The notes: generated by a model not told the origin, from the letters alone. A stretch of 64,000 bases of DNA from an uncultured Thermoanaerobaculia bacterium (GCA_964565225.1 CAZMEL010000001.1:1424-65423); one strand, 5' to 3'; numbered from the stretch's first letter, positions 1 to 4,080 are shown. Translations and numbers: made by a program.

Positions 1-268
1 TCAGCAGGTAGTGCAGGTCGATCGCGGTCTCGGGCAGCTGGACCAGGGAACCGTCGGAGCGGCGGGTCGGCAGGTCGTTGTTGCGCAGCTGCGGGTTGGG
101 CGTGACCTGGTAGAGGTAGAGATTGACCCCGGTCGGAGGGAGTGAGCCCGTGGATCCCGGGGGCCGAACCGTGGTGACGATGGCACCGCTGACGTCCTGC
201 CCGATGGCCGCCTGGAGGAGGCGCCGCAGGGTGGCGGAGACCGTGGCGACCGCGAGGAAGTTGCTCAT
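1..268 (-). CDS. DUF4255 (Pvc16/Afp16 N-terminal domain) protein of an eCIS / phage-tail-like particle. Only the N-terminal 89 aa are in the window; the C-terminus runs off the window start.
   Basis: Hand translation of the minus strand from ATG 268..266 gives [89 protein letters not shown] with no stop down to position 2. The MSNF-AVATV-ATLRRLL start is the conserved N-terminus of the DUF4255 family. Its ATG overlaps the TGA of the upstream gene (tcat at 265..268). It is not in the supplied ORF track because it lacks an in-window stop. Confidence 0.6.
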   Translation of the reverse strand, partial: MSNFLAVATVSATLRRLLQAAIGQDVSGAIVTTVRPPGSTGSLPPTGVNLYLYQVTPNPQLRNNDLPTRRSDGSLVQLPETAIDLHYLL

Positions 269-1218
269 CGTCTCCGGGCCTCGTTGCGTTCGGCCAGGTA
301 GTCGGAGAGCCCACGTTTCGGACCCACCCGCGGGCTGCGAGCTCCCGGTCGGTCGGTCGGCGGGCTGGCTCGTACCTCGATGCGTCCGATGGTCACCGAG
401 ATCGAGCTCTCGATGGGAGTTGGGTTGCCCGGAGGCCCGGAGGCGCGTTCTCGCAGAGGTTGCAGGCCCCCGATCGTTCGATCTACACGGTCTCCGCTGC
501 CTTCGTTCGTCTCCGGCCGAAGCGCTCGTATCTCCGGCGATCGCAGTCGAGAAGCCCCGCGATCGGGGGTCTCTCGTAGGAGGGCTCGTTCCATCCGCTC
601 TGCCCGGCCCTCCGAGCTTTCTTTTGCGGCCGCCGGGCCTGCGACAGGAGCGTCCGAGCCCGTTTCGGTACGGAATGGAGGGAGGTCGCGCGCGGCTGCC
701 TTTCGCGGGAGAGCCGGCTCGACGAGCCTCGGGCGGCCCTCCGGACTCTCGTCCGCGGCTGTCGCTCGTCGGGGAGTCTGGGTTTCGCTGGTCGAATCCG
801 AGGTGGGGCGGACGGAAGGCAGCCGCTCGCGCACGTCCAGCCGTTCGCCATCCTGGCTCCGGGTCGGAGGGCGATCGGTCGCCGGTGCCGGGTCGAGAAG
901 GCGGACCGAAGAGTCGGGAGCTCCGGAGGAGAGGGTCTGCCTCGGGGGTCCCGCGTTCCGCTCGGCCGTCGGCGGAACGGTGCGCGAGGGCCTCGACGGC
1001 TCGAGGGATCCGGTTGAGCCGGGGCGCTGGCGAGGCTGTTCGTGGGCCTGGTCGGCCGAGGTCCGAGGAGCCGCGAGGGGTCGAGCCCCGATGAGCTCTT
1101 CCGAGGGCGCCCCGACAGTTTCCCTGAGCCCTGACTCGAAGGGTTGTCGAGACCGGGGCTCGAGCGTCGGCAGCTCGCCTCGGGACCTGGAAATCAGGCG
1201 ATCGAAGAAGGTGCTCAT
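265..1218 (-). CDS. Low-complexity Pro/Ser/Glu/Arg/Thr-rich hypothetical protein (317 aa) inside the eCIS operon, probably intrinsically disordered. The start is taken at the internal ATG 1218 of track ORF 265..1362.
   Basis: ATGA overlap with the stop of the upstream 246-aa gene (tcat 1215..1218) and ATGA overlap with the downstream DUF4255 start (265..268). It shares the strand of the operon. Third-position GC is about 90% in a sampled stretch, although that column is shared with one plus-strand frame. The N-terminus MSTFFDRLISRSRGELPTLEP and the C-terminus SISVTIGRIEVRASPP look protein-like, while the middle is compositionally biased. Confidence 0.4.
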   Translation of the reverse strand: MSTFFDRLISRSRGELPTLEPRSRQPFESGLRETVGAPSEELIGARPLAAPRTSADQAHEQPRQRPGSTGSLEPSRPSRTVPPTAERNAGPPRQTLSSGAPDSSVRLLDPAPATDRPPTRSQDGERLDVRERLPSVRPTSDSTSETQTPRRATAADESPEGRPRLVEPALPRKAAARDLPPFRTETGSDAPVAGPAAAKESSEGRAERMERALLRETPDRGASRLRSPEIRALRPETNEGSGDRVDRTIGGLQPLRERASGPPGNPTPIESSISVTIGRIEVRASPPTDRPGARSPRVGPKRGLSDYLAERNEARRR

Positions 1219-1955
1219 GCTCCGATCATCTCCAGGTACAGGCGTCTTCGTTCGGGAGCCATGGCGAGGAGGTCCCTTTCGGCCCAGCCGTAGGCGGAAG
1301 CCAGGGAATGGACCTCGTACGGCACTCGGCGCGAAACAGCGGCGAGGCGATGCCAGAAGCACCCACCGACGTCGAGAAGGGCTCGCCAGCCGAGCTCACA
1401 CTCCGGGCACTCGACCTCGACGAGGATCTCGCCGAGGGGGTCGGTTTCTGCCACGGCCGCTTCGAGCGCTTCGAGCTCCGTGTCCGACAGCTGCTCGAAA
1501 GAGATTTCCTCGCGGCTGCGGTGGGCGGCCACCAGGCAACGTTCCAGCAGATCCAGCCGGGCCTCCTGCGGGGTGCTGGAGGGAGGAATGGTTGCCAGGT
1601 CGAGGCTGGTAGGGGCTCGGAATCGCAGAGTGAGGTCGTGCAGCTGCAGCTCACCGCCGGCCTCCTGGGGCCCGTTCGGCTCGGCTCCGGCTCGCAGGTC
1701 GTCGACCGAGAGATCGACTTCCAGCTGTTCCTGGCAATGTGGGCACCGGGCCGTGAGCTCCAGGCTCGGACCGAAGGTTTCGTGATAGAGCTCGAGCAGA
1801 AGAGCGTCTCGCTGACCGACGGGAAGCAGGCTCAGGTCTTCCCACGAGCGCTCCGGAAGAGCGAACGCCAGGGGCGCGAGAGCCTGTTTCGAGGCGGTGT
1901 CAGCAGAGGTCCGCTCCCAGATCTCCAGCATGTCTCGTGCGGAGAGGGGACGCAT
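1215..1955 (-). CDS. Conserved eCIS-operon hypothetical protein (246 aa) with two CxxC pairs (CPHC, CPEC), a possible zinc-ribbon.
   Basis: Its ORF starts 12 nt after the tube-gene stop on the same strand and has a globular-looking composition. The CxxC pairs are about 125 aa apart. No family was recognised by eye. Confidence 0.55.
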   Translation of the reverse strand: MRPLSARDMLEIWERTSADTASKQALAPLAFALPERSWEDLSLLPVGQRDALLLELYHETFGPSLELTARCPHCQEQLEVDLSVDDLRAGAEPNGPQEAGGELQLHDLTLRFRAPTSLDLATIPPSSTPQEARLDLLERCLVAAHRSREEISFEQLSDTELEALEAAVAETDPLGEILVEVECPECELGWRALLDVGGCFWHRLAAVSRRVPYEVHSLASAYGWAERDLLAMAPERRRLYLEMIGA

Positions 1956-2477: not shown

Positions 2478-2505
2478 GAGGTCCCCTCCTCCCGGAGTTC
2501 CGGAG

Positions 2506-4080
2506 CTAGGCCTGTACCTGGTTCGCGAGTTGCTGGATTTGAAGGATCACGAACTCCGCCGGCTTCAGCGGTGCGAAGCCCACGAGGATATTGACGATGC
2601 CGCGGTCGATGTCGTTCTGGGTGGTGGTCTCGCTGTCGACCTTCACCAGGTAGGCTTCCTGGGGGGTCTGGCCCTGAAAGGCACCCTGCCGGAAGAGGTT
2701 CTGCATGAACGCTCCGATGTTCAGTCGCAATTGCGCCCACAGGGGTTCGTCGTTGGGCTCGAAGACCGCCCACTGGGTTCCGCGATAGAGGCTCTCCTCG
2801 ATGAAGAGCGCCACGCGGCGCACGGGGACGTACTTCCACTCCGAGGCAAGGCGGTCGTCTCCCTGGCGGGTACGAGATCCCCAGATCACGGGCCCTACCG
2901 CGGGGCGGGTGCGGAGGGCGTTGATCCCGAGCGGGTTGAGCTCTCCGTTCTCCGGATCCGTCATCGGAACCGACAGCCGGTTGGTGCCGTTGATCGTCGC
3001 CTCGAGCCCCGCGGGGGCTTTCCACACGCCTCGTGTGGTGTCCGTTCGAGCGAAGATTCCGGCCATGGCGCCGCAGGGTGCGAAGTCCTCGATCTGGTTG
3101 TCTCGCAGCGGGTTGGGTTTGCGTAGGCGCGGAAAGAAGAGCGCGGCGTTCTTGCTGGTCGAATCGATATAGGTGGCCAGGCCTTCTTTGGCCAGCTCTT
3201 TGCTGGTCCAGTCGGTCGGAGGATCGATGATCAGCATCGCTCGCCGCCGCTCGCAGTAGCTGGCCGCGGTGGCGAGCAGGGTGCTTTCCGACGCATAGTC
3301 GATGTTCCCGTTGCTTTTGTAGGGAGGAATGCAGAGCAGGTTGAAGAGATCGGTGTCTTCGAGGGCGAAGAGCCCGGTCTTGTCCGCCTCCGATCCGATC
3401 ACATCATCCGCCGAGAGGTTGCCGCCATCGTCTCCCGGTGTCGCGACGGGGCTCGACAGGCTCGGGTCGTCCCAGATGTCGTCACCCGGGCCGGGATCGC
3501 CATGGGCAATCACGGCGGAAGGCAGGTCGCCCGTCACCCGAACGAACTGTGAGCTGTTCTCCAGAACCCGGTCGACCCGGCGAGGGCTCTCGACATAGGT
3601 GACGTTGGGGAAGGATTCGATCGTGCCGGTGGCGCCGTCTCGCACGGTCAGGTTGAAGACCTCGCTCAGAGGCACACCGAGGTTGTCTGCGGCCGCTTGC
3701 AGCACATCTTGATCGATTCGGGCACGCAACAGATTGGCCCAGGTGCCGAACGAAGCCGCCTCCAGGGAGAGCCCCGTGACGGTGCTATCGAGCTGTGCCG
3801 TCGCCGTTCCGGTCGAGCTCTCCAGGCGTACGATCACGGCCTGGCTGCCGCCGTTGAGGTAGAAGTCTTGCACCGAGAAGCCCAGGTAGCTCTCGACCCA
3901 GAGGCCTCCGAAGATCCGCTCGAAGTCTGCAAAACTGTTGATCACCACCGGAGTGGAGACCGGCCCGCGCAACGCCAGGCCGACAAATGCGGTGATCGAG
4001 GTGGCTACTCCGGTGATCGTGCGAACCCCGCTGGGGATCTCTTCGATGTAGACACCGGGATACGTCGGATTGACAGGCAT
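2506..4080 (-). CDS. Contractile-tail sheath protein (Afp2-4 / phage tail sheath family), 524 aa.
   Basis: N-terminus MPVNPTYPGVYIEEIPSGVRTITGVATSITAFVG is the hallmark start of the sheath family. A GGAGG sits 10 nt upstream of the ATG on the minus strand. Confidence 0.9.
   Translation of the reverse strand: MPVNPTYPGVYIEEIPSGVRTITGVATSITAFVGLALRGPVSTPVVINSFADFERIFGGLWVESYLGFSVQDFYLNGGSQAVIVRLESSTGTATAQLDSTVTGLSLEAASFGTWANLLRARIDQDVLQAAADNLGVPLSEVFNLTVRDGATGTIESFPNVTYVESPRRVDRVLENSSQFVRVTGDLPSAVIAHGDPGPGDDIWDDPSLSSPVATPGDDGGNLSADDVIGSEADKTGLFALEDTDLFNLLCIPPYKSNGNIDYASESTLLATAASYCERRRAMLIIDPPTDWTSKELAKEGLATYIDSTSKNAALFFPRLRKPNPLRDNQIEDFAPCGAMAGIFARTDTTRGVWKAPAGLEATINGTNRLSVPMTDPENGELNPLGINALRTRPAVGPVIWGSRTRQGDDRLASEWKYVPVRRVALFIEESLYRGTQWAVFEPNDEPLWAQLRLNIGAFMQNLFRQGAFQGQTPQEAYLVKVDSETTTQNDIDRGIVNILVGFAPLKPAEFVILQIQQLANQVQA

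What the first reader, a model, noticed from the sequence alone, without database searches (positions are those of the whole stretch)
1..4080. Edge of an extracellular contractile injection system (eCIS) operon; the DUF4255 gene is missing from the ORF track
The minus-strand genes encode a phage-like sheath (MPVNPTYPGVYIEE...) and a tube (gp19-like). A gene translating to MSNFLAVATVSATLRRLLQ... (the DUF4255/Pvc16-Afp16 N-terminal signature) runs off the window start. That gene was absent from the supplied track because it has no in-window stop.

The sheath, tube and DUF4255 triad is diagnostic of Afp/PVC/MAC-type secreted injection particles rather than a prophage. There are no capsid, terminase or integrase genes nearby. 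The operon is separated from unrelated cellular genes by an AT-rich control region.

The gene order here (sheath, tube, CxxC protein, disordered protein, DUF4255) places DUF4255 downstream of the tube, whereas in many eCIS loci it leads the operon. Two consecutive ATGA overlaps (1215..1218 and 265..268) tie the last three genes together. Baseplate, spike, effector and AAA-ATPase genes are expected just left of coordinate 1.
Basis: partly seen in the sequence, partly recalled or inferred. Interest (0 to 1): 0.7.

Follow-up and report, generated by a model that had tools for sequence, protein, structure and literature searches.

The report
Phage-tail-like injection system operon edge
The first 4 kb of the window are the start of a roughly 30-kb operon that builds a phage-tail-like "molecular syringe" (a contractile injection system); it is a real but fairly ordinary new member of a well-known family.

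Summary
Near-identical public contigs (99.9%) extend the window leftwards. They show the predicted remainder: full DUF4255 cap, AAA+ ATPase, tube initiator, split spike, PAAR-like tip, gp25, two baseplate-J paralogues, a giant Tail_P2_I protein, a DUF6519 tail fibre and an uncalled DUF4157 cargo gene. There are no capsid, portal, terminase or integrase genes. All eight core eCIS components are met; composition fits lineage II (IIa/IIc-like).

Two corrections apply. The order sheath-tube-CxxC-disordered-DUF4255-ATPase is not unusual: it holds in essentially all of about 65 related loci from many phyla. "Extracellular" cannot be proven from sequence, because the closest solved sheath belongs to a cytoplasmic Streptomyces system.

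Added value: the CxxC protein has a T4 gp26/gp51-type hub-chaperone fold. The disordered protein belongs to a universal, unnamed family with conserved ends and a variable middle, and is a candidate hidden tape measure.

Verdict: a new member of a known kind, of modest interest.

The parts
2506..4080 (-). Contractile sheath gene (524 aa; Afp2/Cis2 equivalent), first gene of the operon
   Evidence: PF17482 at E 2e-11 and PF04984 at E 2e-7. Full-length phmmer match to the Streptomyces CIS sheath 8BKY at E 2e-78, and to PVC, Afp, AlgoCIS and tCIS sheaths at 1e-37 to 1e-45. A GGAGG ribosome-binding site lies upstream.
1968..2477 (-). Inner tube gene (169 aa; gp19/Afp1/Cis1 type)
   Evidence: PF06841 at E 3.9e-43 and TIGR02241 at E 9e-43. 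PDB matches to the tCIS, AlgoCIS, Pvc1 and Afp1 tubes.
1215..1955 (-). CxxC protein (246 aa): PF12322, a T4 gp26/gp51-type baseplate-hub assembly chaperone with a split zinc ribbon; inferred chaperone for the next gene's product and for the hub
265..1218 (-). Disordered P/R/S-rich protein (317 aa) of a conserved, unnamed family; candidate tape-measure or ruler protein (inferred)
   Evidence: It has no Pfam, NCBIfam, PHROG or PDB match. An ORF fills the same slot in 64 related loci. Those ORFs share a conserved N-terminus (MSDYLSRLAxR...VQPRLPSxFEP), a conserved C-terminus (PxIxVxIGRIEVRA ... SLDDYL) and a variable middle, with total lengths of 212-968 aa. Its start and stop overlap the neighbouring genes as ATGA.
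1..268 (-). First 89 codons of the DUF4255/Pvc16-Afp16-type cap (tail terminator) gene; the full product is 442 aa
   Evidence: PF14065 at E 1.5e-16 on the fragment and E 1.5e-38 on the full protein from L003. The fragment is identical to the start of the 442-aa protein.
4081..4495 (.). Relatively AT-rich upstream intergenic region between the operon and a divergently transcribed iron ABC transporter; presumed promoter and control region (inferred)
   Evidence: GC is 52.8% against 66.0% for the window, the 0.6th percentile. No sigma-70 consensus promoter, terminator or Rfam family was found. It shares no sequence with the upstream regions of the two closest loci.

Best explanation
Window 1-4080 is the promoter-proximal end of a one-strand operon of about 29 kb and 18 genes. 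With the cargo gene that follows it, the span is about 31.7 kb. The operon encodes a contractile injection system (CIS) of the Afp/PVC 'eCIS' superfamily, lineage II, IIa/IIc-like in composition. The source is probably an Acidobacteriota (Thermoanaerobaculia-like) genome.

Shown by sequence, the gene order is:
- sheath, tube, PF12322 hub chaperone, disordered protein, DUF4255 cap, AAA+ ATPase;
- a 121-aa protein, the CIS_tube initiator, a LysM-like 99-aa protein;
- a gp27-like 373-aa protein, the gp5 OB spike, a PAAR-like tip, gp25;
- two baseplate-J (TIGR02243) proteins, a giant Tail_P2_I protein, a DUF6519 fibre and a 61-aa coiled-coil protein;
- then a DUF4157-linker-C-terminal-domain cargo gene.

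Inferred from established knowledge of Afp, PVC, T4 and P2 tails, the mechanism would be as follows. The hub and baseplate assemble with help from the PF12322 chaperone. The tube polymerises on the initiator around the disordered protein, which acts as a ruler. The sheath polymerises around the tube. The DUF4255 hexamer caps and stops growth. The AAA+ ATPase helps assembly or cargo loading. Fibres bind a target, the baseplate switches, the sheath contracts, and the spike and tube drive the DUF4157-tagged toxin into the target.

The presence of a fibre gene and the absence of any membrane-anchor gene favour a released, extracellular particle. That step is inferred, not shown.
For: -
- The extension comes from contigs 99.9% identical to the window.
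- All eight core components of Chen 2019 are present (for the definition).
- There are two Afp11 copies, a split Afp8 and a PAAR-like protein, which are the IIa/IIc traits.
- DUF6519 is the eBAP5 fibre anchor and lies downstream of a Tail_P2_I adaptor, as published.
- The DUF4157/eCIS_core ORF scores E 4.5e-23 with the long linker that Geller 2021 describes.
- No strong transmembrane segment occurs in any operon protein.
- No phage head, terminase or integrase genes occur in the window or the extension.
- The same six-gene head block occurs in about 65 loci from more than 10 phyla and in a RefSeq Streptomyces plasmid.
- The chaperone fold is supported.
- The ruler candidate's conserved ends, variable middle and coupling to the cap gene are shown.
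Against: - Mode of action cannot be read from sequence, as PMC12998442 states explicitly.
- The nearest solved sheath is the cytoplasmic Streptomyces CIS. A IIa relative in haloarchaea works like a T6SS.
- The ruler assignment has no homology support. The protein is proline-rich rather than helical like known tape measures.
- Nagakubo 2024 proposes instead that DUF4157 'Tme' proteins are the tape-measure relatives in this kind of cluster.
- Several assignments are weak: PAAR-like DUF4280 at 22.5 bits is below the cut-off, gp27-like scores E 1e-4, and the LysM-like protein has only weak PHROG hits.
- Expression has not been shown.
- The taxonomic guess rests on similarity of CIS proteins, which are prone to horizontal transfer.
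Confidence: 0.88

Rival explanations
1. The particle is the same, but it is not extracellular. It would act inside the producer as a stress- or development-triggered cell-death device (as in Streptomyces CIS-Sc or S. davawensis), or fire from the cytoplasmic membrane like a T6SS (as in the haloarchaeal IIa system or T6SS-iv).
For: The best solved-structure match of the sheath is the cytoplasmic Streptomyces CIS at E 2e-78, far better than PVC or Afp at about 1e-40. Every experimentally studied lineage-II system so far is cytoplasmic or membrane-bound. Synteny matches the S. davawensis 'tme' group. No lysis cassette was seen next to the operon.
Against: A DUF6519 (eBAP5) fibre gene follows a Tail_P2_I adaptor, whereas CIS-Sc lacks fibres. 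No operon protein has a convincing transmembrane helix, and there is no CisA- or Hbor_38620-like anchor gene beside the operon.
Confidence: 0.35
2. The 317-aa disordered protein is not a ruler. It could be a cargo or adaptor protein carried in the tube, a spike or cap plug, or an assembly scaffold. Length would then be set by something else, for example a DUF4157 Tme-like protein.
For: It has no homology to Afp14, gp29 or any tape-measure family. It is proline-rich and not predicted to form a coiled coil. Nagakubo 2024 links DUF4157 proteins to tape measures. This locus has a DUF4157 protein with a linker of about 430 aa.
Against: DUF4157 genes vary in number (0-3) and position among related loci and are missing from the AAA-to-initiator gap in 12 of 34 loci. 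A structural ruler should be constant. The slot protein is present in every locus, sits between a tail-chaperone-like gene and the cap gene, and is translationally coupled to both. Streptomyces particles have a homogeneous length although no 'typical' tape measure is annotated there.
Confidence: 0.4
3. The region is a prophage tail module or an R-type tailocin (pyocin-like) rather than a CIS.
For: The sheath, tube, gp25, baseplate-J and Tail_P2_I families are shared with myophages. The order sheath-tube-chaperone-ruler is the P2/pyocin order (established knowledge).
Against: The DUF4255 cap, AAA+ ATPase and DUF4157 cargo are CIS-specific and absent from phages and pyocins. No capsid, portal, terminase, integrase or lysis genes occur within about 60 kb on one side or about 8 kb beyond the operon on the other.
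Confidence: 0.02
4. The region is a canonical type VI secretion system.
For: Sheath, tube, VgrG-like, PAAR-like and gp25/TssE-like parts are shared with T6SS.
Against: The sheath is a single 524-aa protein, not TssB/TssC. DUF4255 and baseplate-J proteins are present, and Chen 2019 reports these as absent from T6SS i-iii. No TssJLM-like membrane proteins or ClpV were found.
Confidence: 0.01

Closest known systems
Afp (Serratia) and PVC (Photorhabdus) extracellular contractile injection systems, subtype Ia
   Same: The same eight core parts are present: tube, sheath, tube initiator, spike, gp25, baseplate-J, AAA+ ATPase and DUF4255 cap. A fibre gene and a 3' cargo gene are also shared.
   Different: This locus has one sheath gene instead of three, a split spike, two baseplate-J genes, and a Tail_P2_I adaptor with a DUF6519 fibre instead of Afp12/Afp13. 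It has no Afp14 homologue. The cap and ATPase genes sit directly after the tube block instead of at the operon's end. Sheath similarity covers only the C-terminal half, at E about 1e-40.
Streptomyces coelicolor CIS-Sc (subtype IId, cytoplasmic; PDB 8BKY)
   Same: It is the best solved-structure match of the sheath, over the full length at E 2e-78. It is a lineage-II system with no recognisable Afp14.
   Different: CIS-Sc has a single Afp11, an unsplit spike, no fibre, and membrane-protein effectors plus CisA. It acts inside the producer. The present locus has two Afp11 copies, a split spike and a DUF6519 fibre.
Streptomyces davawensis CIS and its 'tme-like' group (Nagakubo 2024, PMC11126660)
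   Same: The clade spans many phyla. The baseplate block runs tube initiator, VgrG-like, PAAR-like. The cargo is a DUF4157-headed, largely disordered protein.
   Different: In that group the DUF4157 gene lies immediately upstream of the tube initiator and is the largest ORF, with transmembrane helices. Here that gap is empty. The DUF4157 gene (826 aa, no transmembrane segment) lies after the last structural gene. Direct sequence comparison with S. davawensis was not possible with these tools.
Halogeometricum borinquense CIS (clade IIa, T6SS-like mode)
   Same: It shares the lineage-II composition of two Cis11 copies, DUF4157 genes inside the cluster, and no recognised cis14.
   Different: It is anchored to the cytoplasmic membrane through a six-transmembrane-helix protein encoded next to the cluster. 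No such gene is seen here.
Myophage P2 / R-type pyocin tail module and T4 hub chaperones gp26/gp51
   Same: The order sheath, tube, chaperone, ruler matches P2 FI-FII-E/E'-T (established knowledge). The 246-aa protein belongs to PF12322 and has a gp26/gp51-like, tail-assembly-chaperone-like fold.
   Different: This locus has no head or lysis genes. Its ruler candidate is proline-rich and unrelated in sequence to phage tape measures. The chaperone carries a conserved four-cysteine zinc ribbon.

Membership tests
eCIS/CIS superfamily (core set of Chen 2019, PMC6899500) | Sheath (Afp2/3/4) and tube (Afp1/5) | tested here: met
   PF17482 and PF04984 for the sheath, PF06841 at E 3.9e-43 for the tube, and PDB matches to CIS sheaths and tubes.
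eCIS/CIS superfamily (core set of Chen 2019, PMC6899500) | DUF4255 cap (Afp16) and AAA+ ATPase (Afp15) | tested here: met
   PF14065 at E 1.5e-16 on the window fragment and E 1.5e-38 on the full protein. PF00004 at E 3e-27 plus the PF22977 winged-helix domain on the next gene in L003.
eCIS/CIS superfamily (core set of Chen 2019, PMC6899500) | Baseplate and spike: Afp7, Afp8, Afp9, Afp11 | tested here: met
   CIS_tube at E 1e-6 (29 bits against a cut-off of 27). Phage_base_V at E 1e-21. GPW_gp25 at E 6e-16. TIGR02243 at E 3e-63 and 3e-67. The gp27-like and LysM-like parts are only weakly supported.
eCIS/CIS superfamily (core set of Chen 2019, PMC6899500) | Not a prophage, pyocin or T6SS: no capsid, portal, terminase or TssJLM genes | tested here: met
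   None was found in the 64-kb window or in the approximately 33 kb recovered to the left. No strong transmembrane segments occur in operon proteins. The rest of the 456-kb scaffold was not inspected.
eCIS in the strict sense (released, acts from outside) | Tail fibre for target binding | tested here: met
   The DUF6519 protein (PF20129 at E 2.8e-55) lies directly after a Tail_P2_I gene. This is the eBAP5 arrangement of PMC12923769.
eCIS in the strict sense (released, acts from outside) | Particles are released and inject a foreign cell | not testable with these tools
   This needs microscopy or bioassay. The literature warns that mode of action cannot be predicted from sequence.
eCIS in the strict sense (released, acts from outside) | DUF4157 (PF13699) marker or cargo gene associated with the operon (Geller 2021) | tested here: met
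   An 826-aa ORF lies 116 nt after the last structural gene and scores PF13699 at E 4.5e-23 with an HELTH motif. An earlier tblastn test had missed it.
Lineage II, subtype IIa/IIc (Chen 2019) | Two afp11 copies and afp8 split into gp27 and gp5 ORFs | tested here: met
   The 967-aa and 870-aa proteins both hit TIGR02243. The 373-aa and 164-aa ORFs carry the gp27-like and OB parts.
Lineage II, subtype IIa/IIc (Chen 2019) | Placement in the dbeCIS/eCIStem phylogeny | not tested
   No reference tree or reference sequences were available. Sheath similarity to IId (8BKY) and to 9EZM is of the same order, so IIa versus IIc versus a sister clade remains open.
'tme-like' CIS group (Nagakubo 2024) | Largest ORF of the cluster, with an N-terminal DUF4157 domain, immediately upstream of the tube initiator and baseplate genes | tested here: not met
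   Here the AAA-to-initiator gap holds only a 121-aa gene. The DUF4157 ORF is at the 3' end and is not the largest ORF. In contrast, 18 of 22 related loci with a large gap do carry DUF4157-motif ORFs there.
Tape-measure proteins (Afp14/gp29/P2 gpT), for the 317-aa protein | Sequence or profile homology to a known tape-measure family | tested here: not met
   No Pfam, NCBIfam, PHROG or PDB hit was found. phmmer against 1.84 billion representatives finds only the protein itself plus one fragment.
Tape-measure proteins (Afp14/gp29/P2 gpT), for the 317-aa protein | Gene position after tube and chaperone; conserved ends with a length-variable middle | tested here: met
   The slot is filled in 64 loci, lengths run from 212 to 968 aa, and both terminal motifs are conserved. 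The upstream gene has a tail-assembly-chaperone-like fold.
Tape-measure proteins (Afp14/gp29/P2 gpT), for the 317-aa protein | Protein length sets particle length; the protein sits in the tube lumen | not testable with these tools
   This needs mutagenesis plus electron microscopy.
PF12322, T4 gp26/gp51-type hub assembly chaperones, for the 246-aa protein | Profile match above the curated cut-off and a matching fold | tested here: met

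The most novel reading that the evidence does not exclude
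The PF12322 zinc-ribbon chaperone and the proline-rich protein that follows it may be the 'missing' tape-measure module of lineage-II contractile injection systems. The ruler would be non-helical, with conserved docking ends (N-terminal MSDYLSRLA...PRLPSxFEP and C-terminal IGRIEVRA...SLDDYL). Its 212-968-aa length range would predict particle length. Ordinary homology searches cannot see it, which would explain why several papers report that lineage II lacks Afp14/Cis14.
Probability: 0.45. Interest if true: 0.55.

Novelty: new member of a known kind. Interest (0 to 1): 0.3.

Why it matters
The finding itself adds one more lineage-II contractile injection system, probably from an uncultured Acidobacteriota genome, to the more than 2,500 loci already catalogued. 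That is useful for annotation but not surprising.

Three by-products are more useful.

1. The head block sheath-tube-chaperone-disordered protein-cap-ATPase is an invariant module across more than 10 phyla, so it can serve as an annotation rule.
2. The disordered protein family is annotated as 'hypothetical', is invisible to single-sequence search, and is the best candidate for the length ruler that the literature says is absent from lineage II. Engineers who want to retune particle length or cargo capacity would need to know this.
3. Public gene calls broke the DUF4157 cargo gene into a spurious antisense ORF and a fragment. This shows that effector inventories in high-GC metagenomes undercount such long-linker toxins.

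Tried and rejected
- **Prophage, pyocin and T6SS readings.** Rejected, for the reasons given under the rival explanations.
Rejected after mapping 18 operon proteins onto 80 related loci.
- **First DUF4157 test.** A tblastn with a DUF4157 protein from a related locus found nothing in the window or extension. This was a false negative. Reading the 'intergenic' DNA after the operon revealed the HELTH motif, and Pfam confirmed it.
- **Homology searches for the 317-aa protein.** Pfam, NCBIfam and PHROGs found nothing. phmmer against 1.84 billion representatives found only the protein itself. Profiles of its C- and N-terminal motifs against all PDB sequences gave only chance hits.
- **PDB sequence searches.** The CxxC protein, the DUF4255 protein, the fibre and the cargo C-terminal domain gave nothing usable.
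- **AF2 of three repeats of the giant Tail_P2_I protein.** Run without an alignment, it gave pLDDT 38, which is unusable, so no fold search was run on it.
- **Look-up of P0001 and of the 2791-aa PKS ORF.** No exact match was on record. The extension was obtained through cluster member P0121 instead.
- **Upstream region.** The promoter and terminator scan, Rfam and tRNA scans found nothing. There was no conservation with the upstream regions of the two closest loci.
- **Sample accessions.** A literature search for them found nothing.

Full report
**Observation**

- The sheath (2506-4080, 524 aa) hits both sheath Pfam domains. It also matches solved CIS sheaths, best of all the Streptomyces Cis2 sheath 8BKY, over its full length at E 2e-78.
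- The tube (1968-2477) hits PF06841 at E 3.9e-43.
- The 246-aa CxxC protein (1215-1955) hits PF12322 T4_baseplate at E 2.3e-13.
- The 317-aa protein (265-1218) has no family hit in Pfam, NCBIfam or PHROGs.
- The 89-codon fragment (1-268) hits Pvc16_N/DUF4255 at E 1.5e-16.
- The two ATGA overlaps are at exactly 1218..1215 and 268..265.
- The fragment is absent from the mechanical ORF list because it runs off the window.
- The intergenic stretch 4081-4495 has 52.8% GC against 66.0% for the window, the 0.6th percentile. No consensus promoter, terminator or Rfam element was found there.

**Extending the contig**

Exact-product look-ups found the same genes on public metagenome contigs from one study (ENA ERZ23499148 scaffold_14, 456 kb; Logan SRR15216809_22417, 49.7 kb). 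These contigs align to window 1-11957 at 99.93% identity. They encode a DUF4255 protein whose first 89 residues equal the window fragment. Walking along them gave the whole operon. After the 442-aa DUF4255 gene come:
- an AAA+ ATPase (672 aa; winged-helix domain plus AAA);
- a 121-aa protein;
- a CIS_tube tube initiator (220 aa);
- a 99-aa protein with weak LysM-type PHROG hits;
- a gp27-like 373-aa protein;
- a Phage_base_V spike (164 aa);
- a DUF4280/PAAR-like 107-aa protein;
- gp25 (122 aa);
- two TIGR02243 baseplate-J proteins (967 and 870 aa);
- a 3433-aa protein whose N-terminus is Tail_P2_I;
- a DUF6519 protein (714 aa);
- a 61-aa coiled-coil protein.

From sheath start to the last of these genes is 29,140 bp, from the record coordinates. 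Many junctions are 4-nt overlaps.

No capsid, portal, terminase or integrase gene occurs there. None occurs in the rest of the window either. The window carries an iron ABC transporter, a two-component system, an MMPL transporter and a PKS/NRPS cluster.

**A missed cargo gene**

The public gene calls leave about 1 kb 'empty' after the operon, followed by a 236-aa antisense ORF and a 290-aa ORF. Reading that DNA showed a DUF4157-type HELTHVAQQ motif. The region is in fact one 826-aa plus-strand ORF (L007 22761-25241) starting 116 nt after the 61-aa gene. Its N-terminus hits PF13699 eCIS_core at E 4.5e-23. A linker of about 430 aa rich in S, P, A and R follows, then a 290-aa C-terminal domain with no known family. 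This is the architecture that Geller 2021 describes for eCIS toxins. My earlier tblastn test for DUF4157 was a false negative.

**Family membership**

Chen 2019 defines eight core eCIS components: Afp1/5, Afp2/3/4, Afp7, Afp8, Afp9, Afp11, Afp15 and Afp16. All eight are present. The same paper says that two afp11 copies and a split afp8 mark subtypes IIa/IIc, which also include archaea. This locus has both traits, and its sheath relatives include a Methanothrix MAG. DUF6519 is the eBAP5 baseplate-anchor domain of eCIS tail fibres. It is found downstream of Tail_P2_I adaptors in loci that lack Afp12, which is exactly the arrangement here. I did not place the locus in a reference phylogeny, so IIa versus IIc stays open.

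**Gene order**

A scan of one genome per species with the sheath returned 80 loci. The closest are a Thermoanaerobaculia MAG at 79% and an Acidobacteriota MAG at 78%. The rest are 50-66% identical and come from Cyanobacteria, Myxococcota, Pseudomonadota, Bacteroidota, Verrucomicrobiota, Actinomycetota, Chloroflexota, Planctomycetota and an archaeon.

Mapping the 18 operon proteins onto these loci showed the order sheath, tube, PF12322, [slot], DUF4255, AAA in every locus long enough to hold it. The usual continuation is initiator, LysM-like, gp27-like, spike, PAAR-like, gp25, baseplate-J. A RefSeq-annotated Streptomyces europaeiscabiei plasmid has the same six-gene head block. There the two middle genes are called 'hypothetical protein', and the baseplate module is inverted.

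The flanks and the upstream region are not shared with the two closest loci. The operon therefore sits in different genomic contexts.

**The two unknown genes inside the finding**

*The disordered protein.* In 64 loci a single ORF fills the slot between the PF12322 gene and the DUF4255 gene, and its stop usually overlaps the DUF4255 start. These ORFs share:
- an N-terminal motif (MSDYLSRLAxR...VQPRLPSxFEP);
- a C-terminal motif (PxIxVxIGRIEVRA, a proline-rich spacer, then SLDDYLxxR);
- a low-complexity middle that makes total length range from 212 to 968 aa, with a median of 287.

A single-sequence phmmer search of 1.84 billion representatives finds only the protein itself and one fragment. 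Profiles of both ends hit nothing in the PDB.

*Inference.* The order sheath, tube, chaperone, ruler is the standard order in P2-type myophages and R-pyocins (established knowledge). I therefore infer that this pair is the chaperone and length ruler of the system. The literature I could read says Afp14/Cis14 is absent from lineage II. Yet Streptomyces particles have a homogeneous length of about 230 nm, which calls for a ruler. The inference is not proven. The protein is proline-rich rather than helical. Nagakubo 2024 instead relates DUF4157 'Tme' effectors to tape measures.

**Cargo position in relatives**

In the related loci the gap between the ATPase and the tube initiator is variable. Of the 22 loci with a gap above 1.5 kb, 18 carry one to three ORFs with the DUF4157 HExxHxxQ motif. 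Twelve of 34 loci, including this one and its two closest relatives, have no insertion there. This matches the synteny of the S. davawensis 'tme-like' group, in which the DUF4157 effector is followed by the tube initiator, VgrG and PAAR genes. In the present locus the cargo gene has moved to the 3' end.

**Mode of action**

Sequence cannot settle it. For an extracellular particle: a fibre gene is present, and no operon protein has a convincing transmembrane helix or resembles a membrane anchor. Against: the nearest solved sheath belongs to the cytoplasmic Streptomyces system, a clade-IIa system in haloarchaea is membrane-bound, and no lysis genes were seen. I put extracellular action at roughly 0.55-0.6 and the cytoplasmic or anchored alternatives at about 0.35.

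**Verdict**

It is a new member of a known kind, and the gene order is not novel.

The most interesting leftovers are the candidate hidden tape-measure module, the giant repeat-bearing Tail_P2_I protein and the mis-called cargo gene. Interest is 0.3.

Noticed in passing
L007 22761-25241 (+), about 25.2-27.7 kb to the left of window coordinate 1: An 826-aa ORF lies directly after the operon. It has a DUF4157/eCIS_core N-terminus (E 4.5e-23), a disordered linker of about 430 aa and an unknown 290-aa C-terminal domain. The public gene calls split it into a spurious 236-aa antisense ORF and a 290-aa fragment.
   Followed up: yes
L007 10001-20302 (+) (protein P0122): This is a giant 3433-aa Tail_P2_I baseplate protein. 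It has a conserved N-terminal segment of about 310 aa, about 26 tandem degenerate repeats of about 110 aa (residues about 315-3250), and a conserved C-terminal segment of about 80 aa. Only about 12 comparably long homologues exist among 5.8 billion proteins. Cyanobacterial relatives carry Sortilin/BNR propellers in the middle instead. The repeat fold is unknown, because single-sequence AF2 failed at pLDDT 38.
   Followed up: partly
L007 25265-26959 (-): A convergent 564-aa gene beside the cargo gene has a weak DNA/RNA non-specific endonuclease hit (PF13930, E 0.12) around an 'RGHLLNDHLGG' motif. It may be a second toxin.
   Followed up: no
window 16286-55239 (+): A large hybrid PKS/NRPS biosynthetic cluster occupies this span. 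It includes three fully reducing type I PKS modules (KS-AT-DH-ER-KR-ACP; 2791, 2239 and 2153 aa) and an NRPS module with a TubC_N dock and a nitroreductase-type oxidase (1449 aa). It also has a KS-AT-ACP protein (1080 aa), two C-A-PCP modules (1119 and 1128 aa), a free C domain (495 aa) and a terminal reductase (427 aa).
   Followed up: partly
window about 15800-16100: This is the second and lowest GC trough of the window (GC about 0.50 against 0.66). It lies just upstream of the first PKS gene and is probably that cluster's promoter region.
   Followed up: no
window 4247 and 4529: The window differs from the 456-kb scaffold by two single-base indels. Both lie in or next to the intergenic region upstream of the sheath gene. 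There are also seven substitutions over 12 kb, of which only one (position 285) falls inside the finding's span. This is strain-level variation between samples of one study.
   Followed up: partly
L010-L087, between the AAA+ ATPase and the tube-initiator genes: This gap acts as a variable 'cargo bay' in related loci. Of the 22 loci with a gap above 1.5 kb, 18 hold one to three ORFs with the DUF4157 HExxHxxQ motif (ORFs of 174-1261 aa). The present locus and its two nearest relatives have nothing there.
   Followed up: partly
L090 (Streptomyces europaeiscabiei plasmid NZ_CP109155.1) 15977-23419: A mobilizable linear plasmid carries the same head block of sheath, tube, 244-aa protein, 479-aa protein, DUF4255 and ATPase. 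Its DUF6519 and baseplate module is inverted, and a DUF4157 gene lies upstream. RefSeq annotates both middle genes as 'hypothetical protein'.
   Followed up: partly
L007 22460-22645 (+) and L017/L019: A 61-aa coiled-coil protein follows the DUF6519 fibre gene here and in L088 (66 aa). In cyanobacterial loci its homologue (55-57% identity) sits just upstream of the sheath gene. Its function is unknown; it may be a fibre chaperone or a regulator.
   Followed up: no
whole window: No tRNA genes and no Rfam families reach the gathering threshold anywhere in the 64 kb.
   Followed up: yes
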